This document shows, in pieces, positions 11,580 to 64,000 of a DNA stretch of 64,000 bases. Each line of letters starts with the position of its first letter. Position 1 is the stretch's first letter. This DNA is from Candidatus Magasanikiibacteriota bacterium (GTDB taxonomy: Bacteria; Patescibacteriota; Patescibacteriia; Magasanikbacterales; GWA2-37-8): positions 61,575 through 125,574 of the forward strand of contig JAPLWQ010000002.1 in assembly GCA_026396515.1 (NCBI GenBank), read 5' to 3'. The position numbers and the translations under genes were made by a program. The notes below the pieces were generated by a model, which made no database searches, had not been told where the DNA came from, and was given only the letters and a program-made list of their open reading frames with translations.

Positions 11580-11631
11580 CGACCCGCTTTTCAATAGCCG
11601 ACGGCAGTTATTGTCAGCGCACATTAGTGAG

Positions 11632-15141: not shown

Positions 15142-15172
15142 ACATCTTAGATAGGGTTTCAGAAAATTACTT

Positions 15173-17752: not shown

Positions 17753-17826
17753 GGGCATGTAGCTCAGCTGGTTAGAGCGCCACCCTTATAAGGTGGATGT
17801 CGATGGTTCAAGTCCATCCATGCCCA
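17753..17826 (+). tRNA. tRNA-Ile (anticodon UAU)
   Basis: Cloverleaf: GGGCATG/CATGCCC acceptor, GCTC-AGCTGGTTA-GAGC D-arm, CCACC-CTTATAA-GGTGG anticodon arm (TAT at 17787-17789), GATGG-TTCAAGT-CCATC T-arm, discriminator A; CCA not encoded. Confidence 0.85.
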
Positions 17827-17831
17827 CAAAT

Positions 17832-40184: not shown

Positions 40185-40216
40185 ATTTATCAGTTATTAT
40201 TTAGTATTTATATTTT

Positions 40217-47720: not shown

Positions 47721-49505
47721 TTACTGTTGTCTCGCGCTAACCTCATTATTAAGCCGTTCTAAAAATTCTTGTTTGCTCATTTTTTCCTGTTTTTCCTGAC
47801 CGCGAATGCGTATCATCCAATCCCCTCCCTCAAGCTCTTTATCACCTACCACCACGATATATGGTATTTTTTCCGCTACCGCTTTACGCACGCGATTACC
47901 AAGCGTTTCATTGGCGCTATCAAGGTCGGCGCGCACACCTAAGTCGAAGAATTCCTTTTGCAAGCTCTCCGCTCCAGCAGTGTGTTTTTCCGAAACAGAA
48001 ATAAACCGCACTTGTACCGGAGAGAGCCATACAGGCCAAATACCGGCATAATGCTCTATCAAAAATGCGATAAATCTCTCATGAGTGGAAAGGGGGGCGC
48101 GATGAATAACAAACACTTCATTATTCTCTTTGCCGGTTTCATCGGTATATGTGAGGCTAAATCGCTTTTTCGCCGCGAAATCAAGTTGAATAGTGGACAT
48201 GGACTCTTCTCTGCCAATAACTGAGCGAAACTGCGTGTCCACCTTAGGCCCGTAAAATGCGGCCTCATCTTCAGCTTCAATAAATTTTACATCACTCTCC
48301 TCCAATACCTCACGGATCACTTGTTGGCTGTATTCCCAATTTTCCGGCTCATTTACATATTTGTCCAAATGCTTCGGACTCCACTTAGACAGCCGGAACC
48401 AATAATCTTTTAAGCCAAATATCTTATAGAAATTAATCGTCAAATCGAGTACGCCCTTAAACTCCTGTTTGATCTGATCTTTACGGCAATAGATATGAGC
48501 GTCATTCATCGCTAGGCCGCGTACGCGCAACAGGCCCGCCAAAGTTCCTGACAATTCATTGCGATAACACATCCCATATTCCGCTATGCGCAAAGGTAAA
48601 TCACGGTATGAGTGCATATCGTGATTATAGATAATGTGATGGTGCGGGCAATTCATCGCCTTCATATAATATGTGCCGTCATCCATAACCATTGGCGGAT
48701 ACATACTGTCTTTGTAATATGGCAGATGACCGGAGGTTAAAAATAGTTCCTCCTTTGCCATATGGGGCGTGGAGACGCGCACATAACCCGCTTCACGCTC
48801 TTTTTCAACAGCTAATTTTTCCACTTCATTTCTGATGATTGTGCCATTGGGTTGCCACATTATCAAGCCTTTACCCACAATATCATCAATAAAAAATAGT
48901 TTTTGTTCAGCGCCAATTTTCCGGTGGTCGCGCTTTTCCGCTTCTGCGAGCATGTTTAAATATTCATCCAATTGATTTTGCTTTTCAAAACAGACTCCAT
49001 AAACGCGCTGAAGCTGAGGATTCTCGTTTTTCCCCCGCCAATAAGCGCCGGCTAATTTTGTTAATTTAAAAGCGCCAATTTCTTTGCTTGAATCAAGATG
49101 CGGTCCTCGGCACAAATCAATAAAATCTCCTGTTTTATAGATTGACACCCCGTCGCCTGATAATTCCACTTCCTCTATGTCGCCAACTCTTGTTGTGCCC
49201 TTATTTTTTATATCGCTGAGCAGCTCCACTTTGTAATCCTGGCCTAATTTCTTGAATAGTTTGACAGCCTCGTCAATTGTCATTTCCTCCCTTTCAAATT
49301 TCACGCCATTTTTGATCAGTTCCCGGGCCCTGATCTCGATATTCAATAGCTCTGCCTCGCCGATCGGCTCGGGAAAATCAATATCATAATAAAAGCCATT
49401 TTCTACGGTCGGACCAACACCAAATTTTGCCTCAGGGTACAACGATTGAACTGCCGCTGCAATGAGATGGGCGCAAGAATGGCGCATTGTTCCAATATTT
49501 GCCAT
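47721..49505 (-). CDS. thrS: Threonine--tRNA ligase (lacks the N-terminal TGS domain)
   Basis: Starts at the editing domain (RHSCAHLIA); class II aaRS motifs; C-terminal anticodon-binding domain. Confidence 0.9.
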   Translation of the reverse strand: MANIGTMRHSCAHLIAAAVQSLYPEAKFGVGPTVENGFYYDIDFPEPIGEAELLNIEIRARELIKNGVKFEREEMTIDEAVKLFKKLGQDYKVELLSDIKNKGTTRVGDIEEVELSGDGVSIYKTGDFIDLCRGPHLDSSKEIGAFKLTKLAGAYWRGKNENPQLQRVYGVCFEKQNQLDEYLNMLAEAEKRDHRKIGAEQKLFFIDDIVGKGLIMWQPNGTIIRNEVEKLAVEKEREAGYVRVSTPHMAKEELFLTSGHLPYYKDSMYPPMVMDDGTYYMKAMNCPHHHIIYNHDMHSYRDLPLRIAEYGMCYRNELSGTLAGLLRVRGLAMNDAHIYCRKDQIKQEFKGVLDLTINFYKIFGLKDYWFRLSKWSPKHLDKYVNEPENWEYSQQVIREVLEESDVKFIEAEDEAAFYGPKVDTQFRSVIGREESMSTIQLDFAAKKRFSLTYTDETGKENNEVFVIHRAPLSTHERFIAFLIEHYAGIWPVWLSPVQVRFISVSEKHTAGAESLQKEFFDLGVRADLDSANETLGNRVRKAVAEKIPYIVVVGDKELEGGDWMIRIRGQEKQEKMSKQEFLERLNNEVSARQQ

Positions 49506-49784: not shown

Positions 49785-50270
49785 CTACTCAGTTGTTGTG
49801 GTGGGCGTACTAGTTTCATTCATAAAAATCGGTCCGACGTTTACCAATATATCATTTTCTTCATTATAAATTATCGCTTTCTTTGCCTGCATAAAAATAA
49901 TAACTTTATCGCCATTTTTTGCATCTTTATAGAATGCCTGCTCGGTCTTTAAAGCGTCAGCGTCGGTTATAGAAGCAACAGTCGGCTCTTCATCAGTTGG
50001 AAGAACAATATGCTTGCTAACTTTATCAAGCAAGGCTTTCACCTCCATTTTTGCCAAATCCTGCTGTCCTTGTGGAGTCGTTAACGAATTTATCCGCTTT
50101 TTCGCGACAGAGTACTTCACAAACATAACTAGACAGCCGGTTAGTGCCATAACAGCAATAATTAGCAAAATAATCATAAAGACCTTCTTTGGATTACCGC
50201 TTATAACAGATGGGGAGGCATCGCGACTATCTTCTTTGACCGGGTTAACTCTACGAATTGAAATCGGCAT
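49785..50270 (-). CDS. Hypothetical membrane-anchored protein (161 aa)
   Basis: ORF; TM VFMIILLIIAVMALTGCLVMFV. Confidence 0.5.
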   Translation of the reverse strand: MPISIRRVNPVKEDSRDASPSVISGNPKKVFMIILLIIAVMALTGCLVMFVKYSVAKKRINSLTTPQGQQDLAKMEVKALLDKVSKHIVLPTDEEPTVASITDADALKTEQAFYKDAKNGDKVIIFMQAKKAIIYNEENDILVNVGPIFMNETSTPTTTTE

Positions 50271-50364
50271 ACAAATAATGCTTAAAAAATTACATCAAGT
50301 ATTATAACAAAAAATCAATATTTGCGAAATTCTCCAACAAATTGTCTGTTGGAGTAATTGGCTA

Positions 50365-53300
50365 TTAACCGACTATCGGTTCGGTTGGTGGTTCTTCGGC
50401 AGGCGGTGTTTCAACAACAGGTTCTTCAACTACCGGTTCAGTTGGCGGTGTTTCAACAACAGGTTCTTCAACTACTGGAGTCTCTTCAGGTACAACCGGC
50501 GGAATATACAAAATCGATAAACCAATCGTGGTAGTAGTACCATCTGAGACAAATACTTTTGATTCCGGCAATGCTCCGAATACTTGCCAGTTGAATACGA
50601 CATCACTCATTTGTATGTCTGGTATTTCTATCCTGAAACCGGAAATGCCCGTGCCGGTTAATTTCCAGCGTCCATCGTAATCAAGCGGTGTCACGGTAAT
50701 AATTGGCATTGTCTCATACGGCTCCGCAAAAGTAATTGTCGTAGAAGAATGACCGGATAATATTTTTGCCTGGCCGACCGTATCTTCACCAAATGTCGTG
50801 TGTTTCTTCACGGCAAGCGTTCCATTAAACACAGCCGCGTTCTCAATTACTAGCATATTGGCCGCCAAACCATCATATACGCCGCTGAGTATGGATTCGC
50901 TGGATGTTGACATACTGGCGAGACGCGCTTCCAGATCAGATAAAGCGGTTTGTAAACTTGTTAACTGTGAATCAGTTGAGGAAGCACTGGTTTCTAACAC
51001 GATCATGCGACTATTTATCTCGGCGAGCATGGACTGTGTTTCAGTGAGAGAGAGATTCAACACATTTAACGATTCAGCCAAAGCAACGCTGGTTGAAGCT
51101 GTTTCGTCCAAAACAATACCATATGCATTAAGTACTGTTTTGATATCAACGATGTCCTTTGTGGTTGATACCGTTAATCCTTCCAGAGCAACCATGCGCT
51201 CATCTAAGGTCAATTCCACAGTAGAAGTCGGCTCCTCTTCAAGCACCAGCACCGTGTTACCCGGATCCTCTGCATCGTCTTGCCAGACACGATAATAATC
51301 GACATTTAAATAAACGCCGTTACTGGTTGAATAGTTCATAAGCATCGCAGCCAGATTGACCGTCGGAATGTTCGTGGTTGATTCACCGCAATATGTCCAA
51401 TTTATACCATCAGAGGAGTTGTTATCAACATAAAATTTAACTGACCCGCCACCTGCTCCGTTTGATGAAACAACTTCATATTTAAGCAGAGCGAAGACAG
51501 TATTATTAATTGTTTGCGCGGCGCATTCAATATTTGTTGAGACACCAGCCCGTCGCGTTACACCACGCCAATTTCCGGTAGCGGTATTATTGGTAAAATA
51601 TATACCATTGGTCGGATCACCGTTTTGCGCAGTGGCCCTGTCGCCGATACCAACCCACAACTTGTCATTTGCGCTGTCCGCTGATGGGAAAAGTTTCATC
51701 ATTGAAACCGGCAAGTTGTTGGCCGAAAATATGGTATGCGCGTTGCCCGTCGTTACACTACCGCTGTAAGCGAGACAACTGCCGCCCAGAAGCAATGCGC
51801 CCATTGTCTGTCGGCCAATTCCATTAATCGCATCATCAACCGTATCCCAGGTACAAGTACCATTTTCATCAACATTGAATATGGCATCATCACCCCAGGC
51901 GATGGCTGTGTCGGCGGATATTTGCGCCCGCTCTCGCATGAACTCTTCTCCGAAATATGAATTCCTACTCATCATTGCGCCTGCTTCAATTGACATACCA
52001 AAATTCGTTGATAAATTCTTTGCCTCACCTACTATATTACCGGCATTATTCTGCCACTGTTGAAGTGCCGCGGTCTGGCCGGAAGCACCCTGTACCACTA
52101 AACCAATGGTTGAACTGGCACGCGACAAAATGTGAACCTGGCCGGCAAATGAGTTCGTATCGTTGGCATGCCCGCCCAAACCGATATCTCCAACAGAGGA
52201 AATTTGTAAATCAGAATATTCGGTAGTAGTGCCAACGGGCTGGCGTTTAATACTCCAGTACGGCGAAGTGGCCCTTGTATCCAGACGAATAATTGCGCCA
52301 AGAGAGGAGGTGTTTCTATTTCCGATCTGAGTGACATTTACGCCGTAAGAAAGTAATTGACTGCCAACCTCAGTGAATAAACCCATCTTCCATGTGCTGC
52401 TATTGGTAAAATTCAAGCCAATCGAATCGGTGTTAACCGTACGATTCGGGAATGCTCCCGGGCCGATAGTCCAAGCCGCCGTGCCGGAAGTAATTCTAAC
52501 GTCTCCCTCGGCAACATGCAGTTTTGATAGCGGTGTGGAAGTACCGATGCCAAGGTACCCGACGTCGGAAAGAGTCATTCCTTCAACTGTTGAGATTGAT
52601 CCTTTTGGCGTTGTCGCCCATCTTAAAGACGTTCCATTATTTGTAATGGAGAAGTTTTCCTCCGCATAAGCCCGCATATAGGCATTAGCACTGGTAGAAA
52701 AAGCTGTTCCAAAATAACCTGAGAAACTATTGTTACCAATCACATCACCGGAAAGAAGCGCTGTTGGTGTTGCCTTGGTCCCATTGGCTCTGCGTTGTCT
52801 GATATTTGCGCCTGCAGTTCCATAAACATCAAGATACATTTGCGGACCCGATGATTGCTCAGTTGACAGGTGAAGTATGCCGGAAGGATCAGATGTGCCA
52901 ATACCGACATTGCCTGTATTTCTGATGGTCATACGCTCAAGAGGAGCTGTTCCTGTGGCAATATCCGGCGCCGTAAAAAATGTAAGTTTTCCCGGCACAG
53001 CCCAGGTGGAAGGATTGCCATCGACGGTTGCCCTGATCGAAGCCGCCTTTTGGAAATTGGTGCCGAAATATCCTTGGAAAATATTCTCGCCGAGAATATC
53101 ATTATTCTGAGATATTTCCGGAGACGCAAGTGTTCCGCGCGAACGGGTAAAATATAAAGCCGGGTACGCGCCTGTTCCGGTCGTGGAAAGCCTAATGTTT
53201 ATGTCCCCGACGTTACCATCTTCGGAATCAAGCTCAAACATTGAAGACACAGCCGACACACTCGGGATACTGGAGCCGAGGTTAATCTGCAAGCGATTGT

Positions 53301-55830
53301 TTCCAGTTGCATGTGAATTGCCGATACTCAGACTGTTATTTGTGCTATTCCAATATAATGTATTTGAGCTGGTGATGGTACTGGTTGAACTCCAAAAAGT
53401 AACTTGCCCGGCAGAACCTGAACCGGAAACGCTACTACTACCAACGCCAAAATCCTGCCACGTACCTGTTACGTTCTTAAACTGCATCACGCCGCTATTG
53501 TCACGGAAGCCATATCCGGACGAGCCGGCGGTAGTGCCAAAATTTAAGTATCTATTGCTGCCTGATAAAATCATACTGCCGTTAACATCCAATTTGGCGA
53601 GAGGCGAAGGTGTGCCAATACCGACGAGACCTTCACCATTAATTCTCAACCGCTCGGTAGCACCGCTGTAACCGTTGCTGGTGAAAAATCTGAAATCTCC
53701 ATAGGCGTATGAACCACTGGTGGTATTGACGCTACCCGTAATCCAGGAATCCATGAAGGCCGATGTAACTTGTGCGCCACTACTATCTACAGCATTGAAA
53801 CTGATAACGCCCATCCGAGAATTATCCGGTGTCTGACCGCCTGAAGATGATTTGCGATAGAATCGGAAACTCGGCCTATCAGCCGGCGTGTCACTGTCAA
53901 CTTCACTTCTAATATCATTATTTTTATTTTGTGATACTACACTAAGTTCATCAGTTAAAGTAGTTGTACCGATGCCAAGCCGACCATTCGCATTGTCCCA
54001 ATAAAAACTGCTTGTGCCTGCAATTGAACTGGTACCATTCCAGAAAGTTACTTGTCCGGAAGAACCCGATCCCACAATATTGCCGGTTCCAGTGGCGGTT
54101 CCTGTCGCGGTCAACGAGAGCCACTGCGAACCGGTGTAACCGAGAAAATCAGTACCGTTCCAAGCGATTGTGCCGGCAGTGGATGTGGGAGTAGTAGTAG
54201 CACCGATATTTATGGCGCCATTAACTGTTAATTTTTCGTATGTGGAAGTTGTACCGATCGCGACATTGCCATTTGATTCAATGCGCATACGTTCGGTAGA
54301 AGCGTCCGGAGGGCCATAACCACCAGCGTATAAAATTATATTTCCAGTCGGACCGGTCGCCGCAAGGGCCAAGCCATTTGCCTGAACATTCGGTCCGCCT
54401 GACATGAGAACGAGATAACCGGCTAAATTGGGCAAGCCATAATCATTGTAATTGGGAGAAGCCGCCATTAAATATCCTCCGTAATCACCTGTCTGGGCAA
54501 GAAAGCTGGCGGTAGAGCTCGGTCCAATATTGGGGTTAGACACACCGGCTATAGCCCAATAATCTGTATTTTGTTCAATATGCAATGGATAGCTCGGTGT
54601 GCTTGTACCAATGCCAAAAAACCCGTTCGTCTGATCCCAATAGAGCGAACTCGTGCCGGTGATTGAGTTTGTGCCATTCCAATAGGTTAATTGTCCGGCC
54701 GAACCTGAACCGTTAATGGTGCTACTTGCACCACCGGATGTGAAAGACAGCCACTGTGAACCGTTATATCCGAGGAAGTCGGAGCCATTATAGATAATGT
54801 CGCCGGCAGTGGAAGTCGGGGTGGTAGACGCGCCAATGTGAATACCGCCGTTTACGGTTAGCATTTCATAGGTGTTGGGGGTACCGATCGCGACGCGGCC
54901 GGTTTCTTCAATGCGCATCTTCTCGGAGGAAGTAGACGGCGGGCCATTTCCGTTGATATAAAAAACAATGTTACTGCCAGGATCACCGTTGGCGGCCAGG
55001 GCCAAACCTTTGGTCTGATCCATTGAAACCAAAGCCATATAACCGGCCAAATTTGTCAGACCATCTTGTGTAAAATTAGTTGAAGCTAAAAGTAAACCGC
55101 CCGAACTGCTGGCTGTTCGCATCATCAATCCCGAAATAGATGAGGTCCCGTTATTCTGATTTTCCAAAGCCATTGTCGGAGAAAAAGTATCGGTATTCTG
55201 AACAACATGCAACTGTGACATGGGCACGTTGGTTCCGATGCCAACAAAACCATTTGACTCAATACGCATGCGTTCAGAGGTTGTGGTCGGTCCCTCATTA
55301 CCGCCAACATAAAAAATAATATTATTATTATCTCCAACTGCTGCAAGGGCGATACCTCTCGCCATTTGGAAAGTAGCCAAGGTTAAATAACCAGCCATAT
55401 TGGTGTAACCATCCTGGCTGAAATTACTTGATGGCAGCATAAGAGCGCCACCAACATCATCAACGGTTAATCCTATCATCACTGCCGAACTGGCATTGTT
55501 CATGGTATTTTCAAACATGGCACCCGTCCAATCATTTACACTTTGTACAAGATGCAAAGGAGCCTGCGGGGTGCTTGTACCAATACCTAATCGTCCGTTG
55601 GCTTGATCCCAAAACAGAGAACTGGTTCCGGTGATTGAGTTTGTGCCATTCCAATAGGTTAACTGTCCGGCCGAACCTGAACCGTTGATGGTGCTACTTG
55701 CACCACCGGATGTGAAAGACAGCCACTGTGAACCGGTGTAGCCGTAAAAGTCCGTGCCAACGCTCACTTGATGTTGAAGGCCCTGAATTGCCGCCAGCAT
55801 AAAAAAGAATGTTATTGGTACTGTCACCAA
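50365..55830 (-). CDS. Giant repetitive cell-surface fibre protein (1821 aa): tail-fibre-like GYTGSQWLS... repeats, ConA/lectin-like region, coiled-coil stalk, Pro/Glu-rich C-terminal tandem repeats
   Basis: More than 12 copies of a ~50-aa module (...DFLGYTGSQWLSFTSGGASSTINGSGSAGQLTYWNGTNSITGTSSLYWD..NGRLGIGTSTP...LHV...); C-terminal PVVEEPVVETPPTEP x2 encoded by a 48-nt tandem repeat; the many antisense ORFs inside are spurious. Confidence 0.7.
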   Translation of the reverse strand: MVTVPITFFFMLAAIQGLQHQVSVGTDFYGYTGSQWLSFTSGGASSTINGSGSAGQLTYWNGTNSITGTSSLFWDQANGRLGIGTSTPQAPLHLVQSVNDWTGAMFENTMNNASSAVMIGLTVDDVGGALMLPSSNFSQDGYTNMAGYLTLATFQMARGIALAAVGDNNNIIFYVGGNEGPTTTSERMRIESNGFVGIGTNVPMSQLHVVQNTDTFSPTMALENQNNGTSSISGLMMRTASSSGGLLLASTNFTQDGLTNLAGYMALVSMDQTKGLALAANGDPGSNIVFYINGNGPPSTSSEKMRIEETGRVAIGTPNTYEMLTVNGGIHIGASTTPTSTAGDIIYNGSDFLGYNGSQWLSFTSGGASSTINGSGSAGQLTYWNGTNSITGTSSLYWDQTNGFFGIGTSTPSYPLHIEQNTDYWAIAGVSNPNIGPSSTASFLAQTGDYGGYLMAASPNYNDYGLPNLAGYLVLMSGGPNVQANGLALAATGPTGNIILYAGGYGPPDASTERMRIESNGNVAIGTTSTYEKLTVNGAINIGATTTPTSTAGTIAWNGTDFLGYTGSQWLSLTATGTATGTGNIVGSGSSGQVTFWNGTSSIAGTSSFYWDNANGRLGIGTTTLTDELSVVSQNKNNDIRSEVDSDTPADRPSFRFYRKSSSGGQTPDNSRMGVISFNAVDSSGAQVTSAFMDSWITGSVNTTSGSYAYGDFRFFTSNGYSGATERLRINGEGLVGIGTPSPLAKLDVNGSMILSGSNRYLNFGTTAGSSGYGFRDNSGVMQFKNVTGTWQDFGVGSSSVSGSGSAGQVTFWSSTSTITSSNTLYWNSTNNSLSIGNSHATGNNRLQINLGSSIPSVSAVSSMFELDSEDGNVGDINIRLSTTGTGAYPALYFTRSRGTLASPEISQNNDILGENIFQGYFGTNFQKAASIRATVDGNPSTWAVPGKLTFFTAPDIATGTAPLERMTIRNTGNVGIGTSDPSGILHLSTEQSSGPQMYLDVYGTAGANIRQRRANGTKATPTALLSGDVIGNNSFSGYFGTAFSTSANAYMRAYAEENFSITNNGTSLRWATTPKGSISTVEGMTLSDVGYLGIGTSTPLSKLHVAEGDVRITSGTAAWTIGPGAFPNRTVNTDSIGLNFTNSSTWKMGLFTEVGSQLLSYGVNVTQIGNRNTSSLGAIIRLDTRATSPYWSIKRQPVGTTTEYSDLQISSVGDIGLGGHANDTNSFAGQVHILSRASSTIGLVVQGASGQTAALQQWQNNAGNIVGEAKNLSTNFGMSIEAGAMMSRNSYFGEEFMRERAQISADTAIAWGDDAIFNVDENGTCTWDTVDDAINGIGRQTMGALLLGGSCLAYSGSVTTGNAHTIFSANNLPVSMMKLFPSADSANDKLWVGIGDRATAQNGDPTNGIYFTNNTATGNWRGVTRRAGVSTNIECAAQTINNTVFALLKYEVVSSNGAGGGSVKFYVDNNSSDGINWTYCGESTTNIPTVNLAAMLMNYSTSNGVYLNVDYYRVWQDDAEDPGNTVLVLEEEPTSTVELTLDERMVALEGLTVSTTKDIVDIKTVLNAYGIVLDETASTSVALAESLNVLNLSLTETQSMLAEINSRMIVLETSASSTDSQLTSLQTALSDLEARLASMSTSSESILSGVYDGLAANMLVIENAAVFNGTLAVKKHTTFGEDTVGQAKILSGHSSTTITFAEPYETMPIITVTPLDYDGRWKLTGTGISGFRIEIPDIQMSDVVFNWQVFGALPESKVFVSDGTTTTIGLSILYIPPVVPEETPVVEEPVVETPPTEPVVEEPVVETPPAEEPPTEPIVG
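55619..55759. repeat. 141-nt junction block, 100% identical to 57240..57380
   Basis: Exact identity over 141 nt, whereas in-frame paralogous copies elsewhere (e.g. ~54640-54770) differ at several positions. On the coding strand each block begins with TGGCACGGACTTTTACGGCTACACCGG. Confidence 0.7.
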
Positions 55831-57442
55831 CTGCAGCTATAGCGATACCATTAGCATTCTGGAAAGTAGCCAACGCCAGATATCCGGCCAAATGCGAATA
55901 TCCGCTTTCGTTAAAATTCTCCGATGCTACCATTAATCCGCCTTCGGCATTCCCGACTTTAAGTAATAGGGCGGCGGTCGAAGAAGCACCATTGACGGTA
56001 TTTTCGAGCGCCATATTTGCCGTAAAATCATTGCTATTATTCACCACATGAAGCGCATACTCCGGAGTCGTGGTGCCAATGCCTATATAACCATTATTAT
56101 CAACTGTCAATATATCAGCGGTACCCGTTGAGATTTTGAACAAGCCCGCGGCCGACGATGTAGTGTAGAGATCCAACAAATAATTCGGAGATGCGGTACC
56201 AATACCGACGAAACCATTGGCCTCAATACGCATTCGCTCAGTATTGGAGGTTGGGGGGCCATCATCAGTACCGGTGAAGAAAATGATGTTGCCGGTCTCA
56301 CCAGTTGCCGCCAAAGCCAAACCATTTGCCCCTACTCCATAACCTTCAGGGTCACTCTGTAATGCGGTCGGTCCACCAGACATTAACAACATATAACCGG
56401 CCAAATCTGAAAGGCCAAAGTCAGAGAAATTTTCTGATGCCATCAATAAATAACCACCGGCATTTCCAACCGACAATTTCAAAGCTGCGGTGGAGCTGGC
56501 GCTGGTGTTGGTATTGTGAATGGATTCTACCGCCCAATAATTTATGTCCTGAACGATATTTACAGCATAACTTGGTGTGGTAGTGCCAACGGCGAGACGG
56601 CCGTTATTTTTATCCCAAAACAAGGTATTTGTTCCAGTGATAGCGCTTGAGTTGTCCCAGAAAGCGACCTGGCCGGAAGAGCCGGAACCGGAGACTCCCC
56701 CACCACCGGCTGTGAATGACAGCCATTGTGAACCGGTATAACCGAGAAAGTCTGACCCGTCAAAGATAATATCGCCGGCAGTTGAAGTGGGAGTGGTAGA
56801 GGGGCCAATATTGATACCGCCATTAACGGTAAGTAATTCATAAGTTGAGCTGGTACCGATGGCGACTCGGCCATTGTTTGCAAGCCGCATCCATTCACTT
56901 GATTGATCCCCATTGCCGTAAAAAACGGTATTGCCTGTTGGGCCGGCAATTAAAGCCAAGCCATTGCCCTGATCACCCTGCGACATGGTGGAAAAAAGAG
57001 CTGTATATCCCGCTAAATTTGTCATTCCAGCATCGCTAAAATTAACACCAGCCACTCCAACGCCGCCTGTATAATTACCGACTTTAAACACTGCCAGAGC
57101 GGTTGAGCTAGGGCCGCTATTTAAATTTTCAAATAAGGCGCTTGGTCCATCAAGATTAATATCATTTACTAAATGCAATCCCCATTGCGGAGTAGAGGTG
57201 CCGATACCTAACCTTCCATTAGTATTATCCCAATAGAGCGAACTGGTTCCGGTGATTGAGTTTGTGCCATTCCAATAGGTTAACTGTCCGGCCGAACCTG
57301 AACCGTTGATGGTGCTACTTGCACCACCGGATGTGAAAGACAGCCACTGTGAACCGGTGTAGCCGTAAAAGTCCGTGCCAGTTACTTTCAACGCGCATTC
57401 TCTCTGTATTAGCAGTCGGCGGTCCATATCCGGTGCCGGCAT
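55694..57442 (-). CDS. 582-aa ORF of the same repeat family, bounded on both sides by the 141-nt junction blocks; probably an internal segment of a larger gene
   Basis: The N-terminus after RECALK-VTG runs into GTDFYGYTGSQWLSFTSGG...; the C-terminus ends with the out-of-frame tail WHGLLRLHRFTVAVFHIRWCK, identical to the tail of the upstream ORF. Confidence 0.5.
   Translation of the reverse strand: MPAPDMDRRLLIQRECALKVTGTDFYGYTGSQWLSFTSGGASSTINGSGSAGQLTYWNGTNSITGTSSLYWDNTNGRLGIGTSTPQWGLHLVNDINLDGPSALFENLNSGPSSTALAVFKVGNYTGGVGVAGVNFSDAGMTNLAGYTALFSTMSQGDQGNGLALIAGPTGNTVFYGNGDQSSEWMRLANNGRVAIGTSSTYELLTVNGGINIGPSTTPTSTAGDIIFDGSDFLGYTGSQWLSFTAGGGGVSGSGSSGQVAFWDNSSAITGTNTLFWDKNNGRLAVGTTTPSYAVNIVQDINYWAVESIHNTNTSASSTAALKLSVGNAGGYLLMASENFSDFGLSDLAGYMLLMSGGPTALQSDPEGYGVGANGLALAATGETGNIIFFTGTDDGPPTSNTERMRIEANGFVGIGTASPNYLLDLYTTSSAAGLFKISTGTADILTVDNNGYIGIGTTTPEYALHVVNNSNDFTANMALENTVNGASSTAALLLKVGNAEGGLMVASENFNESGYSHLAGYLALATFQNANGIAIAAVGDSTNNILFYAGGNSGPSTSSERWHGLLRLHRFTVAVFHIRWCK
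57240..57380. repeat. 141-nt junction block, 100% identical to 55619..55759
   Basis: See the paired block. Confidence 0.7.
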
Positions 57443-60400
57443 AAAAAATAATATTACCGGTCGGACCTGTCGCCGCTATAGCCAAACCATCGGCCTGTAC
57501 GTCCGGCCCACCGGACATCAAAATCATGTAACCGGCTAAATTTGATAATCCGTAATCGGCAAAATTTTGCGAACCGGCGACCAAATATCCTCCATAATCC
57601 CCAACTTGCATACGCATGCCCGCCGTGGAACTGGGACCGGTATTGGAATTTTGTATGACATTAAGCGCCCACAAATCGTTATTTTGAACGATGTGTAATG
57701 GAAAAGACGGCGTACTCGTGCCGATTCCAAGATTTCCATTTGTTTCATCCCAGTACAATGAACTGGAACCGGTGATGGAACTTCCAGTATCCCAGTAAGC
57801 AAGCTGACCGGCAGACCCGGAGCCGTAAACGTTGCCGGTGCCAGTGGCTGTACCGGTCGCAGTCAATGAAAGCCATTGCGAGCCATTATAACCGATAAAG
57901 TCAGTGCCATTAAATGCGATAGTTCCGGCAGTGGAGGTTGGTGTAGTTGTTGCTCCGATGTTGATTCCACCGGCAACGGTTAACCTTTCATATGTGGAGC
58001 TGGTACCAATAGCTACATCGCCATTATTTTCAATGCGCATTCTTTCCGTATCCATGGTCGCCGGGCCATAACCACCGGTGTAGAACATAATATTCCCCGA
58101 AGAGCCGGCGAGCAAAGCAATACCATTACCTTGTGTACCCGGAGAAACAGTAGAAACTAAAACAGTATAACCGGCTAAATTGGTCAGGCCGTAATCACTA
58201 AAATTCTCACCAGCTATCCCAATGCCGCCAGTATAATTTCCAATCTTAAACTGTAATAATTCGGTTGAACTTGCACCATTATTTAAGTTTTCAAAAGTGG
58301 TAAGCGGACCATTATAATCTTCGTTGTGAACGACATGTAAGTTATACCCTGGGGTGGTCGTGCCGATACCAAGCCGGTTGTTTAGGTCATCCCAGAAAAA
58401 ATTGCTGTTATCCTGCGCCAGTTTGCCGGAAGAACTGACAAAAATTATTGAGCCCGGAGTAAAGCCGCCGATATCAGAACCGATCAGGCCGAGCGAAGAC
58501 GTGGAAATCCAGCTCGGCGCGCCCGAACCGTTTGAAACAAGAAGCTGACCAGCAGTCCCAGTCGCGGTTAATTCTAATGAATCGGCGTCAGAATAAGCAA
58601 TGGCACCGGCCAAAGCAGTCATATTCCTATTAGTGCCGCCGTTTGCCATAGCAAGCACTCCAGTAATATCGAGCCCCGACGCCAAATTAACCGTTCCTGT
58701 TGATATCACTCCGGCAGTAGCTCGTAATAGCCCGCTTAAGTTATCCACGGTTAAATGAGAAATTGTTGTGGTAGATAATGTAGAAAGACCAGTGAAGTAT
58801 GAATAACCGGAAAAAGTATTGGTCGCAGAAAACAAATTGTCTACTCCAGTGCCTGCAAAGCCGGTATGGCCGGACAAATCATAACTTAAACCGCTCAAAG
58901 AGCTGTGCGCGGTAGCAAGATAACTGCCATTGGGGATATTAGCCGAGTTTCTCAAGTCCTGAGTTTCTTGAAATGACACCGTTCCACCGATGTTCCTCAA
59001 GATGACCCTGTATAGCACTTTCATTTCCGCATATGGCAAATTCCCAAGCGCCAATGTATCAAACGTGTTATTTGTCCGCGCATTGCCGATTGAGGTGTCC
59101 TGACGCTGGCCCATTAAAGAGACAATCGGCGTCAAGGGATCGTTTGTCGCAAAAATCCAATAGGCAACATAATTACCAGAGCTGACGGTTGACGTGCCGG
59201 TCCCATTATCATAAAAGAGTGTTCCACCTCCGCTTGTTAAATAGTAAGCGCTTTGCGAACCGGTAAAACGATAGTTGGTGGCACCGTCATGAAAAAAGAC
59301 CTGAAACTGCGTGGCTGTAGATATGTCATGGCGGACATCTTCATCCCATATAGCGCCGGAGGAAACAGAGCCGGTAGCATTTGAGAATGTGCCTGCCAGA
59401 CCGGATTCGTAACGTGTGCCGATGGTAAAATGCAAATACTGATGGGTCAAACCGTCCATTGTCAGGCCGTGCCGCTCATCACCCAATTCGCCTGTTAGCG
59501 TATTTTGATTCCAATATACAGTAGCGATGGGAATGTTGGGCGAAGCGATAGTCCAGGCGACAGTTGATGATGTAAGAACGCCGGTGCTTGTGTAATAGAA
59601 ATAATACGAACCAGTGATGTTCGGAATTGAAACAGATCCCGTGCTTTTAGTTATTGCACTACCGCCGGAATAAACTCGGAAATTTGTACCTGTGATCGTA
59701 AAAGTGCGCGTCGATGTCGCAAATGAAAGCGAGGTGTCAGTGCGGTTGGGAAAACCGGTGGCTTCGCTTCTGAGCGATGCAAGATTTGTAAGAGACCGCC
59801 AAGCGCCGCCGTCATATCCTTCAAAATCGCCGGTGGTAGTGCTGAATCTCATTGATCCGTTAATACCGGTGCCCGTGTTGCCTATCCTGATAGCGCCGCT
59901 ACCGGAACCATCAACAAGATCCAATCTTTGCGAAGGAGTTGTTGTCCCTATCCCCAAACGACTGTTCACACTGTCCCAATATAATGATGTTGTACCTGCA
60001 ATTGAACTGGTACTATTCCAATATGCGAGCTGGCCCGACGCGCCTGAACCGGAAATACTACTCGTGCCTGTGGCTGTAAGCGATAACCACTGCGAACCGG
60101 TGTAGCCAATAAAGTCTGTGCCGTTAAAAGCAATTGTGCCGGCTGTTGATGTTGGAGTCGTGGTGGCGCCGATATTGATGCCACCGGCCACCGTAAGTTT
60201 TTCATGAGTTGAAGTCGTGCCAACAGATAAGTAGGATGTAAGCACTCCCGTGCCGGCGGTCAAGCCGCCGGTGGTGGTTATATTGCCCGCGCCGAAAGAG
60301 GCGTTTCCAACGTTGAAAGTGATTGATTGCCCGGCGGCAGTAGCGCTGAAAATTCCATATATCAATGCATTTGCTTTATCCCCCGAAGAACTGCCTCTAT

Positions 60401-63400
60401 CTTGGTTATCTATATATAAACTGTTTGACCCGTTCTCATAAAATCCGGCGTAATTCCCAATACCAACATTGCCCGAGCCAAGAGCACTATATAAAGAATA
60501 GAAACCGAATGCCGCGTTGCTATTGCCGGTGCTGTTGGAGCGGAGCGCGTTTGTGCCTACGGCAGTGTTATAAGAACCCGAAGTATTGGAAGTCAAAGCG
60601 CTATTGCCTTGGGCATTGTTGTTCGTTCCGGTGGTGTTGCCCGACAAGGCTGCATTTCCGATGGCATTATTTCCAAAACCGGTAGTGTTATTGGTCAAAG
60701 CGCTGTTACCAAAAGCTGAGTTGGAAAAACCGGTAGTATTATTCTTAAAAGTGTCACTGCCGGCGGCCACGTTTGACGAGCCGGACATACCGGTATTTCC
60801 GGCGTTACCGAAGAAATAGTTGGCAAGTGCAGTATCACCATAAGCAAGGTTTACATTGTTGAGTTTCAGAATTGAACCGGTCGTAATATTTATATCTCCT
60901 TTCACGTCCAGAGCGTGAGATGGGGCGCTGACACCTACACCCAAATAGCCATTTGTATTATTCCAATACAAAGAACTCGAGCCGGTTATAGAAGTTGCTC
61001 CGTTCCAGAAAGCCAGCTGACCGGCAGAGCCGGAACCCATAATTGTACTGCTTGCCCCGCCAGCGGTGAACGAAAGCCATTGCGAACCGGTGTAGCCCAC
61101 AAAATCAGAGCCGTCCCAAGTAATGGTGCCGGCTGTTGAAATCGCTGTGGTGGTAGCACCAATATTTACAGCGCCGCCTACTGTCAGCATTTCATAAATT
61201 GAACTTGTTCCAACACCCACTGAACCGCCAAAATAAGACGGCGAACTCGTTGAGGAAACGATTAGCGCTCCGGTAGTATATAACCCACCATCACCAACTG
61301 AAATACTGTCTAACACCCGTAATCTCTTATCTGCCACTATTTCATCTTTAATATAAAGTTTGCCTGCGGTCAGAGAACCAAAATTCCCCGTCAGCAAATT
61401 AACACCCGGCAGAGAATATGTTTTAAGAGTGGTGCTTGTATAAGGAATATCGGCAAAACCAACATAGAGATAATTATGTACGGCGGCAAACGTCAATGGC
61501 AAATGGCCGGATCCGGTCCAAAAAGAAGATATTAAAATCGGATTAGTGGATGAAGCCACATTAGCTTGATAGATGCTTCCATCCCAACTGCTTAAAATTG
61601 CCGTAGTTCCATAAACCTTAATAAAATTAGCCGCTGAATCTGTTAGATGCATACCGCCTTCTTTGTATGCATTAGTTGGATCGGAAATATTTATAATAAC
61701 CAATTTGTCGGTACTCGTTGATGTGGTGAAAGAACCGCCGGAAGCCATATACAAATGATCTCCTGAAATATCCATAGACCAACCGCCCTCGCCTGTATCA
61801 ATAGAACTTCCTCCCACAATAAATGGATTAGTAGGATCTGAAACATCATAAATTCTAAAATGGTCGTAATTGCTGGTTTCATTGCGAGACAAGATATAAA
61901 GATAACCATTATAATATTTGACAGACCAACCAGCGTTAGCCGACCAAGTTAAACTGGTACTGTTAACAACACGAGGATTATAAGGATCGGCAATGTCAAC
62001 AATAATTAAGCCTCCTCCTCCTAGGGTTAGGATATAGGCGTATCTTCCGGAAACATCAATCGCATTACACTGACTATAAGGAGAGATGTCCAAATTTTGT
62101 CCTCCTGTAACATACGGAGTCTTTGGATTTTTAATATCCACTATTCTTAGACAATTGGCCGTAGTCGTGCTATGGAGAGTGACATAAGCATAATTTCCTT
62201 GTAGATCAATACCCTTGCCTCCGCCACCCACGGCTCCATTCGGAAAATTAGCAATGGGCCCGCTGTTTATTACCTCCGGCACGGTAGGATTTGTGATGTC
62301 TACAATTCGTAAAACAGGATCAGTCAGGGATTCATAAGTAATGGTATATAGAAAATTTCCTGAAACATCCATTGAACGCAAGGAGGAATTAAAGTCGGAA
62401 GACGAGTCAAAAAGTTCCGTTCCATTATCATTGGTTGACATACAGTTAATTCCGTCGACCGAAAAACATGGCGCAGTAATCATCCCACTACTATTTAGAG
62501 TACCCGATACAGCAACGTTTCCGGCGATCTGCAAAGCAGAAGTGGTGTCATCTGTCGCTCCGCCAATTAAAACTCGAACGGACGAGGAAGCGGTCGGATA
62601 AAGTTTTCCGCTTGCTTCTGTCCACGCTCCTCCGCCCGCTGTAAGGGATAACCAATTCGAACCATTAAAACCGATAAAGTCAGAACCGTTCCAAGCAATC
62701 GTTCCCGTTACGGAGGTCGCCGTCGTAGTAGCGCCGAGAGTGATAGCGCCGGACACGGTCAATGTGCCTGAAGGACTAAAATATCCAAGAGTGTTCAGAC
62801 TGCCCAAATCACCATTCATGAACATTATATTGCCGGTCGCCGAAGCCAGAACCAAATTTCCCTGCGCGCCGCGCTGCTGAACAAACATTGAATTCGGCAT
62901 ACCTGAATCACCGCCTGAGACTGCGAATATCCGATGTTGAGTAATATCGTTTTCAAGTGTAATAACCGGACCGGCGCCAAAATCCGAAGTGGTAGAATTT
63001 TTTACCGTCAAAACCGTATTATGTTCAGAATTATTTTCCTGAGTGAAATCATTACCTTCCATCCGATAATTACCCCTAGTGTAAATATTTCCGGTGGAAC
63101 CTTCCACACTAAATCTGGTACCGGTCGGCGATACAACAGATATGTAAAGACCGGCGGCAGTATCCTGAATATTATTTGAACCCAACTTGATTCCTTCAAA
63201 CGTGCTAAAAATCACGACATCTTCAGATGAAGTATTGGCTAGAAAAAATGCCGCGCCGATGTCACTATTGCCTTGCCGCATACCCACTACACTCACTGTA
63301 CCCATCATCGGTACTGCGACGCGCTCCAACGCAATCGTCGGATTGCCCGCCTGATCATATATAAAGAGACCTGCGCCGCTAAACCCGAATGGATCGGATG

Positions 63401-64000
63401 ACGAGGCACTGGTACGAAGGTAATTATACCCGTTATTTGAAACACTAATTTCATTTCCTGTACCAATATTATTTATTGTAAGAACGTCAGAAACGCTTGA
63501 AGCGTCTTCAATATTTAATGCAAGCGCCGATACATTCTGCCCGCTGGCGACATAGATATCCATTTTGGCAGCCGGCGTTGTCGTATTCACTCCAATATTT
63601 CCATTGGTTAATACGCGCAGCATTTCGCTTCCGCCAACTTGGCTAAGAGTAAATGATCCATTACCAGCTTGTGATAACCCCCAAGTGGAGCTTCCGATAT
63701 ATACATTATTTGCCCAGAAGTCCAACCACCTGCTGGATGATGAACCCAGAGAATACGCGCTAGTCGATCCCGGTAAAAAATCATAGGTTGATGTTCCGCC
63801 GGCAAACTGAATGGAATTAGTTGTAATATTTCCATTGTCAGTTACCTGCTGTAAATTCAAGAAACCGGAACCCGTTCCGGTCGCGGTAAGGGAAAGCCAT
63901 TCTGACCCGGTGTAACCGATAAAGTCGTTACCGTTCCAAGAGATTGTTCCAGCGGCCGAACTCGCTGTGGTGGTGGCGCCGATATTAATAGCGCCAACTA
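57315..64000 (-). CDS. Giant repetitive surface protein, 5'-partial (the frame stays open upstream of the track start 63860 to the window edge; at least 2228 aa in the window): fibre repeats plus an LVIVD-repeat beta-propeller region
   Basis: The track start is an internal TTG; upstream in frame it reads ...IGATTTASSAAGTISWNGNDFIGYTGSEWLSLTATGTGSGF-LNLQQ with no stop. LVIVD-type repeats (LRIVDITNP, LRIVDIKNP, LIIVDIADPYNP, FRIYDVSDPTNP, LVIINISDPTNA). Confidence 0.7.
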   Translation of the reverse strand, partial: VGAINIGATTTASSAAGTISWNGNDFIGYTGSEWLSLTATGTGSGFLNLQQVTDNGNITTNSIQFAGGTSTYDFLPGSTSAYSLGSSSSRWLDFWANNVYIGSSTWGLSQAGNGSFTLSQVGGSEMLRVLTNGNIGVNTTTPAAKMDIYVASGQNVSALALNIEDASSVSDVLTINNIGTGNEISVSNNGYNYLRTSASSSDPFGFSGAGLFIYDQAGNPTIALERVAVPMMGTVSVVGMRQGNSDIGAAFFLANTSSEDVVIFSTFEGIKLGSNNIQDTAAGLYISVVSPTGTRFSVEGSTGNIYTRGNYRMEGNDFTQENNSEHNTVLTVKNSTTSDFGAGPVITLENDITQHRIFAVSGGDSGMPNSMFVQQRGAQGNLVLASATGNIMFMNGDLGSLNTLGYFSPSGTLTVSGAITLGATTTATSVTGTIAWNGSDFIGFNGSNWLSLTAGGGAWTEASGKLYPTASSSVRVLIGGATDDTTSALQIAGNVAVSGTLNSSGMITAPCFSVDGINCMSTNDNGTELFDSSSDFNSSLRSMDVSGNFLYTITYESLTDPVLRIVDITNPTVPEVINSGPIANFPNGAVGGGGKGIDLQGNYAYVTLHSTTTANCLRIVDIKNPKTPYVTGGQNLDISPYSQCNAIDVSGRYAYILTLGGGGLIIVDIADPYNPRVVNSTSLTWSANAGWSVKYYNGYLYILSRNETSNYDHFRIYDVSDPTNPFIVGGSSIDTGEGGWSMDISGDHLYMASGGSFTTSTSTDKLVIINISDPTNAYKEGGMHLTDSAANFIKVYGTTAILSSWDGSIYQANVASSTNPILISSFWTGSGHLPLTFAAVHNYLYVGFADIPYTSTTLKTYSLPGVNLLTGNFGSLTAGKLYIKDEIVADKRLRVLDSISVGDGGLYTTGALIVSSTSSPSYFGGSVGVGTSSIYEMLTVGGAVNIGATTTAISTAGTITWDGSDFVGYTGSQWLSFTAGGASSTIMGSGSAGQLAFWNGATSITGSSSLYWNNTNGYLGVGVSAPSHALDVKGDINITTGSILKLNNVNLAYGDTALANYFFGNAGNTGMSGSSNVAAGSDTFKNNTTGFSNSAFGNSALTNNTTGFGNNAIGNAALSGNTTGTNNNAQGNSALTSNTSGSYNTAVGTNALRSNSTGNSNAAFGFYSLYSALGSGNVGIGNYAGFYENGSNSLYIDNQDRGSSSGDKANALIYGIFSATAAGQSITFNVGNASFGAGNITTTGGLTAGTGVLTSYLSVGTTSTHEKLTVAGGINIGATTTPTSTAGTIAFNGTDFIGYTGSQWLSLTATGTSSISGSGASGQLAYWNSTSSIAGTTSLYWDSVNSRLGIGTTTPSQRLDLVDGSGSGAIRIGNTGTGINGSMRFSTTTGDFEGYDGGAWRSLTNLASLRSEATGFPNRTDTSLSFATSTRTFTITGTNFRVYSGGSAITKSTGSVSIPNITGSYYFYYTSTGVLTSSTVAWTIASPNIPIATVYWNQNTLTGELGDERHGLTMDGLTHQYLHFTIGTRYESGLAGTFSNATGSVSSGAIWDEDVRHDISTATQFQVFFHDGATNYRFTGSQSAYYLTSGGGTLFYDNGTGTSTVSSGNYVAYWIFATNDPLTPIVSLMGQRQDTSIGNARTNNTFDTLALGNLPYAEMKVLYRVILRNIGGTVSFQETQDLRNSANIPNGSYLATAHSSLSGLSYDLSGHTGFAGTGVDNLFSATNTFSGYSYFTGLSTLSTTTISHLTVDNLSGLLRATAGVISTGTVNLASGLDITGVLAMANGGTNRNMTALAGAIAYSDADSLELTATGTAGQLLVSNGSGAPSWISTSSLGLIGSDIGGFTPGSIIFVSSSGKLAQDNSNFFWDDLNNRLGIGTTTPGYNLHVVHNEDYNGPLTTFENLNNGASSTELLQFKIGNYTGGIGIAGENFSDYGLTNLAGYTVLVSTVSPGTQGNGIALLAGSSGNIMFYTGGYGPATMDTERMRIENNGDVAIGTSSTYERLTVAGGINIGATTTPTSTAGTIAFNGTDFIGYNGSQWLSLTATGTATGTGNVYGSGSAGQLAYWDTGSSITGSSSLYWDETNGNLGIGTSTPSFPLHIVQNNDLWALNVIQNSNTGPSSTAGMRMQVGDYGGYLVAGSQNFADYGLSNLAGYMILMSGGPDVQADGLAIAATGPTGNIIFYAGTGYGPPTANTERMRVESNWHGLLRLHRFTVAVFHIRWCK

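What the first reader, a model, noticed from the sequence alone, without database searches (positions are those of the whole stretch)
50365..64000. More than 14 kb of giant repeat-protein coding sequence split into three ORFs by two identical 141-nt blocks that shift the frame by +1
Three consecutive minus-strand ORFs (>2228 aa partial, 582 aa, 1821 aa) belong to one repeat family and overlap by 128 nt and 137 nt. Each overlap sits inside a 141-nt block (57240-57380 and 55619-55759) that is 100% identical between the two junctions, while other paralogous copies of the same module differ at several positions. In both cases the upstream ORF reads the block as ...W-H-G-L-L-R-L-H-R-F-T-V-A-V-F-H-I-R-W-C-K-stop, and the downstream ORF reads the same nucleotides one position over as G-T-D-F-Y-G-Y-T-G-S-Q-W-L-S-F-T-S-G-G..., which is the family consensus. 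Relative to the in-frame modules, each junction also lacks about 35 codons (the NVAIGT...IAWN part). The options are: (a) one gene of more than 4600 aa disrupted twice by the same repeat-mediated deletion plus a 1-nt offset, i.e. a recent pseudogenisation, or cassette-style gene conversion or phase variation of a surface fibre; (b) two genuine +1 frameshifts at a conserved site; (c) a repeat-collapse assembly artefact. The perfect identity of the two blocks argues for very recent copying or an artefact.
Basis: seen in the sequence. Interest (0 to 1): 0.75.

Follow-up and report, generated by a model that had tools for sequence, protein, structure and literature searches.

The report
Giant fibre gene split at repeats
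One roughly 6,100-residue surface-fibre gene of an uncultured Magasanikbacteria genome appears as three overlapping reading frames because two repeat junctions are out of frame; this is more likely an assembly collapse than biology, and only the raw reads can settle it.

Summary
Three minus-strand ORFs overlap by 128 and 137 nt. Each overlap lies in an exact 141-nt block (57380-57240 and 55759-55619). No other pair of modules in the window shares an exact run longer than 48 nt.

The three ORFs are one gene. ORF A is the C-terminal part of a 3800-aa protein that carries the only signal peptide. ORF C carries the conserved C-terminal region. Orthologues in four related genomes, one fully syntenic, are single ORFs of 3036 to at least 3960 aa.

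The two junctions are not the same deletion. Their left breakpoints differ by 6 codons, and their right breakpoint is identical to the base. Both skip the motif that precedes every other copy of the block. One missing piece of length 2 mod 3 would restore both frames.

The block length equals MEGAHIT's default largest k-mer (141), which is the end overlap that contigs carry where a de Bruijn assembly breaks at a repeat.

- Best reading: a collapsed exact repeat or bad contig join (about 0.55).
- Rival: a real, very recent rearrangement that truncates the protein (about 0.35).
- Programmed +1 frameshifting has no support (about 0.04).

No reads or independent assembly could be reached, and the assembler is unknown.

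The parts
57318..64000 (-). ORF A. This is the C-terminal 2227 aa of a 3800-aa protein (NCBI NTW66_01080 / MCX6781704). The part outside the window carries the signal peptide and the conserved IPNAVNYQGRLRDN N-terminus.
   Evidence: The N-terminal 942 aa align colinearly with orthologue L008 residues 11-946 at 61%.
57381..57404 (-). Left side of junction J1: a truncated E motif (ERMRVESN). It ends on a full codon (AAC) immediately before the block.
57240..57380 (-). Exact 141-nt block, copy 1. It begins with T, the third base of the Asn codon of the canonical 'N GTDF'. It contains the TAG stop of ORF A at 57317-57315.
55694..57442 (-). ORF B, 582 aa (NCBI aa, NTW66_01075). About 2.5 repeat units, no signal peptide. 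Its first roughly 21 residues are out-of-frame read-through of the preceding unit.
55760..55768 (-). Left side of junction J2: the E motif cut after S-E-R (AGT GAG CGT). It stops 6 codons earlier in the motif than J1.
55619..55759 (-). Exact 141-nt block, copy 2. It contains the TAG stop of ORF B at 55696-55694.
50365..55830 (-). ORF C, 1821 aa (NCBI calls 1811 aa, NTW66_01070). Repeat units followed by the unique C-terminal region that orthologues conserve.
   Evidence: C residues 1271-1778 match L008 residues 3251-3753 at 57%, and C 1083-1522 match L002 at 62%.
54647..54787 (-). Third, in-frame paralogue of the block (module C356), preceded by a normal T motif. It is 91.5% identical overall and 97% over block positions 26-141.
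49785..50270 (-). Conserved 161-aa neighbour downstream of the giant gene; used as a synteny anchor.
   Evidence: 60% to L008 and 53% to L002, in the same position
47721..49505 (-). Threonyl-tRNA synthetase; used as a synteny anchor and as the link to an independent Logan contig.

Best explanation
There is one gene here. It encodes a secreted, tail-fibre-like repeat protein of about 6,100 aa in a Candidatus Magasanikbacteria (CPR) genome. The two frame breaks are most likely not in the organism's DNA. They look like the footprint of an exact repeat longer than 141 nt that sits at two module boundaries and was collapsed when contigs were joined.

In this reading, each true copy is: unique left flank, then a missing piece X (about 113 nt, encoding the G-x-V-x-IGT...TTTPTSTAGTIAxN motif), then the 141-nt block. 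A de Bruijn assembler with largest k = 141 (the MEGAHIT default) breaks at such a repeat. It leaves right-hand contigs that both start with the last 141-mer of the repeat. A later joining or scaffolding step then abutted the unique left flanks to those contigs and lost X twice.

Shown:
- The three ORFs are fragments of one ancestral gene.
- The anatomy of both joints.
- The 141-nt length.
- One insert of length 2 mod 3 repairs both frames.

Inferred:
- That X exists.
- Which assembler and joining step were used.
For: 1. One gene. The signal peptide is only in A and the conserved C-terminus only in C. Orthologues L008, L002, L003 and L006 are single ORFs of 3849, at least 3960, 3036 and 3052 aa. 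L008 is syntenic through orf161, ThrRS, MiaB and MiaA.

2. Apart from the two joints, about 18 kb of coding sequence has no defect. ORFs B and C are open for 582 and 1821 codons. That fits an artefact or a very recent event.

3. The right breakpoint is the same base at both joints, while the left breakpoints are unrelated and 18 nt out of register. A graph node boundary produces this naturally. Two independent illegitimate recombinations would not.

4. The exact identity is 141 nt, no more and no less. PMC10914622 states that de Bruijn assemblers break at repeats and leave contig end sequences of length maxK, and gives the MEGAHIT k-list as 21...,119,141.

5. Both left flanks end on a complete codon and the block starts on codon position 3. 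One common missing piece of 113 nt (2 mod 3) therefore restores both frames at once.

6. The skipped T motif precedes all 8 other Q motifs in the window. No homologue has a short in-frame E-to-Q joint.

7. Precedent: West-Roberts et al. (bioRxiv 10.1101/2023.11.21.568195) report two adjacent giant genes on one Illumina contig that became a single gene after a local assembly error was corrected.
Against: - The assembler and pipeline of this MAG are unknown to me. The 141 = maxK argument counts only if MEGAHIT defaults were used.
- A pure de Bruijn contig cannot contain a join that lacks (k+1)-mer support, and a MEGAHIT unitig cannot contain the same 141-mer twice. An extra scaffolding or joining step with faulty overlap handling has to be assumed, and I could not identify one.
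- The model needs one of the two true copies to carry a 6-codon indel exactly at the left edge of the repeat.
- The assembly is otherwise base-perfect. It is 100% identical to an independent k=31 Logan contig over 8.2 kb, and the window has no Ns.
- Natural gene conversion clearly operates in this patch. The third, in-frame copy is 97% identical against a 60-70% background, so recent real copying is plausible.
Confidence: 0.55

Rival explanations
1. The sequence is correct. A recombination-prone tandem array of modules suffered very recent out-of-register rearrangements. These may have been illegitimate joins followed by gene conversion that homogenised the 141-nt patch. Translation then stops 21 codons after J1, and the cell makes a 3800-aa truncated fibre that lacks the conserved C-terminal region. 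B and C would be fresh pseudogene fragments, or the state would be one variant in a heterogeneous, possibly phase-varying population.
For: - The record is base-perfect against an independent Logan contig nearby.
- De Bruijn contigs normally contain only read-supported k-mers.
- A third, in-frame copy at 97% identity shows real gene conversion in exactly this patch.
- The genome has amplified the module many-fold relative to orthologues: L008 and L002 have one Q motif each, against 9 in protein A plus more in B and C. The array is therefore dynamic.
- A conversion tract would naturally stop at the joint, because homology ends there.
Against: - It needs two independent illegitimate joins with the same right breakpoint to the base but different left breakpoints.
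- Homologous recombination or conversion from J1 would give ...ERMRxESN|block, not ...SER|block.
- The identity length equalling 141 would be a coincidence. My rough estimate is about 1 in 100-200.
- Both events would have to be recent enough to leave 2,400 downstream codons without a single stop.
- B and C have no signal peptide, so they could not function as surface proteins.
Confidence: 0.35
2. Two programmed recoding events: +1 ribosomal frameshifting, or a 1-nt hop, inside the conserved block. Together they would produce one roughly 6,100-aa protein, and the block would be kept identical because it carries the signal.
For: - It would explain in one stroke the same phase at both sites, the perfect conservation of the block and the intact downstream ORFs.
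- The block contains sequences that could re-pair in +1: GGA-CUU-UUA and GUC-UUU-CAC.
- A small hairpin holds the UAG stop in its loop.
Against: - The codons at the joints (AAC, CGU) cannot re-pair in +1.
- The candidate slip sites are followed by ordinary sense codons, not a stop or an evidently rare codon.
- There is no upstream Shine-Dalgarno-like stimulator, and this genome shows little SD use.
- The block's fold is not better than shuffled sequence (z = -0.87).
- No lysine landing codon in the right frame exists for a bypass from AAG-UAG (read from the block sequence).
- All four full-length orthologues encode the protein in a single frame, and no other protein in the database ends with the frameshifted tail.
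- The product would still lack the T motif that is otherwise invariant before Q.
Confidence: 0.04
3. Three genuine separate genes. B and C would be translated from internal AUGs: 57442 or 57427 for B, and 55800 for C.
For: - NCBI annotates three hypothetical proteins.
- Each downstream frame has an AUG preceded by an A/U-rich stretch, which resembles real starts in this SD-poor genome.
Against: - Those AUGs are a by-product of the conserved NIIFYAGG motif (TTT TAT GCN) read in +1. The first roughly 20 residues are out-of-frame junk.
- B and C have no signal peptide.
- The starts lie 110-137 nt inside the upstream ORF.
- Orthologues are single genes.
Confidence: 0.03

Closest known systems
Local assembly errors that split giant repeat genes in short-read metagenome assemblies (West-Roberts et al. 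2023, bioRxiv 10.1101/2023.11.21.568195)
   Same: Adjacent large ORFs of one family sit on one contig in an uncultured bacterium. The paper reports that correcting a local assembly error fused two neighbouring giant genes into one.
   Different: That case was verified with reads; this one could not be. The organism (Omnitrophota there) and the protein family are different.
De Bruijn-graph breakpoints at repeats, with contig end overlaps of length maxK (COBRA paper, PMC10914622)
   Same: An exact repeat whose length (141 nt) equals MEGAHIT's largest default k-mer sits at both anomalous joints.
   Different: A legitimate maxK join leaves a read-supported sequence. Here the left side of each joint is out of frame and lacks a conserved motif, so an additional faulty step must be assumed. 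The assembler is not known.
prfB (RF2)-type programmed +1 ribosomal frameshifting (from my own knowledge: CUU UGA C slip site with an upstream SD-like element)
   Same: A +1 change of frame is needed to make the full protein. A CUU-U sequence exists 9 nt into the block.
   Different: There is no in-frame stop at the slip site and no SD-like stimulator. The arrangement is not conserved in orthologues. There are two sites in one gene, each combined with a missing protein motif.
Tail-fibre-like repeat proteins ('tail fiber domain-containing protein', PHROG 9942 and 18345, GIGT-motif repeats)
   Same: ORFs B and C hit tail-fibre PHROGs (E = 7e-11 to 4e-33). Distant homologues carry PF13884 and are named tail fiber domain-containing proteins.
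   Different: This is a chromosomal gene of a CPR bacterium next to housekeeping genes (ThrRS, MiaA, MiaB, UvrA), with a signal peptide. No Pfam or NCBIfam family hits B or C directly; A has only an LVIVD repeat.
Recombination-based variation of repeat surface proteins: silent-cassette gene conversion and invertible tail-fibre segments (from my own knowledge)
   Same: A surface-fibre gene shows mosaic, recently converted patches among paralogous modules.
   Different: There are no inverted repeats in the 13.7-kb region. No recombinase was found among the neighbours examined. No donor cassette was identified. The observed joints are out of frame rather than alternative in-frame ends.

Membership tests
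Single orthologous giant surface-fibre gene of Magasanikbacteria | N-terminal signal peptide plus the IPNxxNYQGRLRDN region at the start of the gene | tested here: met
   It is present only in ORF A's full protein P0118. That protein aligns 61% over 942 aa with L008 residues 11-946.
Single orthologous giant surface-fibre gene of Magasanikbacteria | Conserved C-terminal region at the end of the same gene | tested here: met
   It is present only in ORF C, at 57-62% identity to the C-termini of L008, L002 and L003.
Single orthologous giant surface-fibre gene of Magasanikbacteria | Same genomic neighbourhood in relatives, encoded as one uninterrupted ORF | tested here: met
   In L008 a single 3849-aa ORF is followed by orf161, ThrRS (86%), MiaB and MiaA. 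L002, L003 and L006 are also single ORFs.
Programmed +1 ribosomal frameshift (prfB type) | A P-site codon that can re-pair in the +1 frame at the point where the frames must switch | tested here: inconclusive
   This is not possible at the joint codons AAC and CGU. It is possible at CUU-U and UUU-C inside the block, but such sites are expected by chance in 63 nt.
Programmed +1 ribosomal frameshift (prfB type) | A slow A-site codon (stop or rare) next to the slip site, and an upstream stimulator | tested here: not met
   The A-site codons are UUA and CAC. The stop lies 17 codons after CUU. There is no SD-like element, and the block's fold has z = -0.87.
Programmed +1 ribosomal frameshift (prfB type) | Conservation of the frameshift arrangement in orthologues | tested here: not met
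   All orthologues are read in a single frame. No other database protein carries the frameshifted tail.
De Bruijn assembly breakpoint or collapsed repeat | Exact repeat whose length equals the assembler's largest k-mer | tested here: met
   The repeat is exactly 141 nt. The MEGAHIT k-list ends at 141, and contig end overlaps equal maxK (PMC10914622). This is only a numerical match, because the assembler of this MAG is unknown.
De Bruijn assembly breakpoint or collapsed repeat | Lack of read support across the joint, doubled depth on the repeat, clipped or discordant reads | not testable with these tools
   There is no read access. JGI metagenome scans for the block and for the J1 flank found nothing. 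Logan fragments of the locus could not be retrieved.
Invertible or cassette-type tail-fibre variation (shufflon, Gin/Cin type) | Inverted crossover sites flanking alternative segments, with an adjacent recombinase gene | tested here: not met
   No inverted repeats of 30 nt or more occur in 50300-64000. The downstream neighbours are ThrRS, small ORFs, MiaB and MiaA. The upstream side lies outside the window.

The most novel reading that the evidence does not exclude
The joints are real and functional. A CPR bacterium would make a roughly 6,100-aa surface fibre by two +1 recoding events at an identical 141-nt cassette. Alternatively, it would use out-of-register module joints, homogenised by gene conversion, as an on/off or length switch for the fibre (phase variation of a giant adhesin in an episymbiont).
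Probability: 0.06. Interest if true: 0.75.

Novelty: already known. Interest (0 to 1): 0.25.

Why it matters
If the breaks are an artefact, the public annotation (three hypothetical proteins, MCX6781702-704) misrepresents one giant secreted fibre of about 6,100 aa. The case then gives a simple screening rule: an exact repeat of length maxK at an out-of-frame joint inside a repeat gene flags a collapsed repeat. That rule could be applied across MAG collections, where giant genes are systematically under-counted.

If the breaks are real, the locus shows how fast modular surface fibres of CPR episymbionts are remodelled and inactivated. The protein is the likely host-contact structure, so its truncation would matter for the organism's lifestyle.

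Neither outcome changes general knowledge. Only the low-probability recoding or phase-variation reading would.

Tried and rejected
1. Independent assemblies. Two JGI metagenome scans, for the block and for the J1 flank, found no contig. All three protein-database searches returned only the MAG's own proteins at high identity, with no Logan fragments. Read-level support therefore could not be assessed.

2. Finding the source study or assembler. Searches for SRR20698649, for the SRR20698 prefix, and for Magasanikbacteria with assembly terms gave nothing relevant.

3. Frameshift signals. There is no re-pairing at the joint codons, no stop-adjacent slip site, and no significant RNA structure. For a T4 gene 60-style bypass from AAG-UAG, the only downstream AAA is in the wrong frame.

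4. Ribosome-binding-site test for independent starts of B and C. This is uninformative, because real genes in this window mostly lack SD motifs.

5. A single ancestral joint later duplicated. Rejected, because the left flanks are ordinary diverged paralogues and identity drops to 59% and then about 30% right after the block.

6. Conversion from J1 into a canonical module. This predicts ...ERMRxESN|block, not ...SER|block.

7. Chimeric de Bruijn join at a shared k-mer. Rejected, because the joints contain no sequence that two canonical parents would share.

8. Structure prediction of ORF B with 40 homologues. The model was poor (mean pLDDT 57, pTM 0.29), so no fold search was run.

9. Pfam and NCBIfam gave no family for B or C.

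Full report
**Observation.** The window's last 14 kb carries three consecutive minus-strand ORFs:
- ORF A ends at 57315 and is open at the window edge.
- ORF B is 57442..55694 (582 aa).
- ORF C is 55830..50365 (1821 aa).
- The overlaps are 128 nt (A/B) and 137 nt (B/C).

The segments 57240-57380 and 55619-55759 are identical over exactly 141 nt, and identity ends abruptly on both sides. A three-frame read-out confirms how the block is read. At each site the upstream frame reads it as WHGLLRLHRFTVAVFHIRWCK-stop. The downstream frame reads it as GTDFYGYTGSQWLSFTSGG..., which is the family consensus.

The repeat is not chance. Module paralogues in this gene are 60-77% identical. Apart from this block, the only repeated 31-mers in the gene are 35- and 48-nt stretches shared with a third copy, plus a short Pro-rich repeat at the C-terminus.

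**Source and context.** The sequence is a chromosomal contig (328,883 bp) of an NCBI MAG named Candidatus Magasanikbacteria bacterium.
- ORFs C, B and A are annotated as three hypothetical proteins, NTW66_01070, NTW66_01075 and NTW66_01080.
- Neighbouring genes are housekeeping: ThrRS, MiaA, MiaB and UvrA.
- The full ORF A protein is 3800 aa. It starts with a signal peptide and the motif IPNAVNYQGRLRDN.
- An independent k=31 Logan contig from run SRR20698649 is 100% identical to the window over 8.2 kb. It ends within a few bases of where the window's own 31-mer repeats predict a break. The organism is therefore in that run, and the record is accurate at base level in the flanking region.

**One gene, not three.** A scan of one genome per species with the unique C-terminal part of ORF C found seven related loci. 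In four of them the complete gene is a single ORF:
- L008: 3849 aa
- L002: at least 3960 aa
- L003: 3036 aa
- L006: 3052 aa

L008 is fully syntenic. Its giant ORF is followed by the 161-aa gene, ThrRS (86% identity), three small ORFs, MiaB and MiaA. The first 942 aa of protein A align colinearly with L008 residues 11-946 (61%). ORF C residues 1271-1778 align with L008 residues 3251-3753 (57%).

The N-terminal secretion signal is thus only in A, and the conserved C-terminus only in C. Fused, the gene would encode about 6,116 aa. The extra length relative to orthologues comes from amplification of a roughly 210-aa unit. L008 and L002 each have one copy of the DF-x-GY-x-GS-x-W (Q) motif, whereas this gene has more than ten.

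PHROG tail-fibre families match B and C. Distant homologues are named tail fiber domain-containing proteins. Pfam and NCBIfam give nothing beyond an LVIVD repeat in A. An AlphaFold model of B was too poor to use (pLDDT 57).

**Anatomy of the joints.** The repeat unit has the following motif order:

| Label | Motif |
|---|---|
| G | LYWD..N.LGIGT |
| N | variable domain with NLAGY |
| F | NIIFYAGG |
| E | ERMRIE.NG.V.IGT |
| T | STYE.LTV.G.INIGATTTPTSTAGTIA.N |
| Q | GTDF.GY.GSQWLS |
| S | GSGSAGQ |

All eight other Q motifs in the window are preceded by T. At the two joints a truncated E motif is joined directly to Q:
- J1 is ...GAA AGT AAC | T GGC ACG GAC (ERMRVESN, then the block).
- J2 is ...AGT GAG CGT | T GGC ACG GAC (STSSER, then the block).

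The right breakpoint is therefore identical to the base. The T is the third base of the Asn codon of the canonical 'N GTDF'. The left breakpoints lie 18 nt apart in the motif, and the left flanks are ordinary diverged paralogues. Both left flanks end on a complete codon, which is why both joints have the same +1 offset. No homologue has a short in-frame E-to-Q joint.

A third, in-frame copy (54787-54647) is 97% identical to block positions 26-141 but only 68% to positions 1-25. Past position 141, identity among the three copies drops to 59-71% and then to about 30-40%. A patch of about 116 nt has therefore been homogenised among three modules. J1 and J2 additionally share the first 25 nt.

**Programmed frameshifting.** The evidence is negative:
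- The joint codons AAC and CGU cannot re-pair in +1.
- Slip-capable sequences inside the block (CUU-U, UUU-C) are followed by ordinary sense codons.
- The stop lies 21 codons after the joint.
- There is no SD-like element, and this genome barely uses SD.
- The block does not fold better than shuffled sequence (z = -0.87).
- A bypass from AAG-UAG has no in-frame landing codon.
- No orthologue or any other database protein has the arrangement.

I give this reading about 4%.

**Real rearrangement versus artefact.** A real origin has three difficulties.
- Ordinary homologous recombination or conversion cannot produce joints with the same right end but different left ends. Conversion from J1 would give ...ERMRxESN|block.
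- Two illegitimate joins at the same base are therefore needed.
- Both would have to be so recent that 2,400 downstream codons remain open.

In favour of a real origin:
- Real conversion does act on this patch, as the third copy shows.
- De Bruijn contigs normally contain only read-supported k-mers.
- The flanking sequence is perfect against the Logan contig.

The artefact reading explains several features together.
- The length of exact identity, 141 nt, equals the last value of MEGAHIT's default k-list. De Bruijn assemblers break at repeats and leave contig ends that overlap by maxK (PMC10914622).
- Suppose the true exact repeat is longer: X plus the block, with X about 113 nt encoding the missing T motif. 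The right-hand contigs of both copies would then start with the same last 141-mer. The unique left flanks would end where exact identity begins.
- A join that drops the overlap from the left contig yields exactly 'left flank | 141-nt block', twice.
- The same missing piece (length 2 mod 3) would restore both frames.
- The two landmarks of the deletion are the start of exact identity and 141 nt before its end. These have meaning only for a k=141 graph.
- West-Roberts et al. report the same symptom in an Illumina assembly: two adjacent giant genes on one contig that became one gene after a local assembly error was fixed.

Weaknesses of the artefact reading:
- I do not know the assembler.
- I cannot name the step that would make such a join.
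- One true copy would need a 6-codon indel at the edge of the repeat.

**Verdict.** The 'one gene' reading is well supported.

| Cause of the two frame breaks | Weight |
|---|---|
| Assembly collapse or bad contig join | about 0.55 |
| Real, very recent disruption or population variant | about 0.35 |
| Programmed recoding | about 0.04 |
| Three separate genes | about 0.03 |

All attempts to reach reads or an independent assembly of the joints failed. The decisive test is read mapping or a k-mer count of the two joint sequences in SRR20698649, together with a check of the recorded assembly method.

Noticed in passing
window 11470-11580 and 15170-15300: Two copies of a G+C-rich element of about 100 nt, including an exact 38-nt stretch (11497-11534 = 15202-15239). 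One copy sits downstream of a terminator-like hairpin after the 9143-11407 gene. The other overlaps the start region of the 14041-15297 ORF. It could be a small repeated intergenic element or an RNA. Rfam at gathering threshold reported nothing there.
   Followed up: partly
window 17753-17827: tRNA-Ile with anticodon TAT (UAU). As far as I know this is uncommon in bacteria, which usually read AUA with a lysidine-modified CAU tRNA.
   Followed up: no
window 50380-50478: The C-terminus of the giant protein ends in a short tandem Pro/Glu/Val-rich repeat (PVVEEPVVETPP...). The independent Logan contig breaks exactly at this 31-mer repeat.
   Followed up: partly
window 37638-42121: A DUF4012 protein (848 aa) is followed by a 634-aa protein with weak DUF11 and NEW3 hits. 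These are further candidate cell-surface genes about 10 kb from the giant gene.
   Followed up: no
L002 positions about 140-250: The orthologous giant ORF in MAG DAIOHD010000001 contains a masked run of N near its 5' end, so its true length exceeds 3960 aa.
   Followed up: no
window 57240-57380 to 55619-55759: ORF B's segment is bounded by the same 141-mer at both ends (a 1762-nt unit). In an assembly graph that is a loop at one node. The true copy number of this segment (0, 1 or more) is therefore also uncertain.
   Followed up: no
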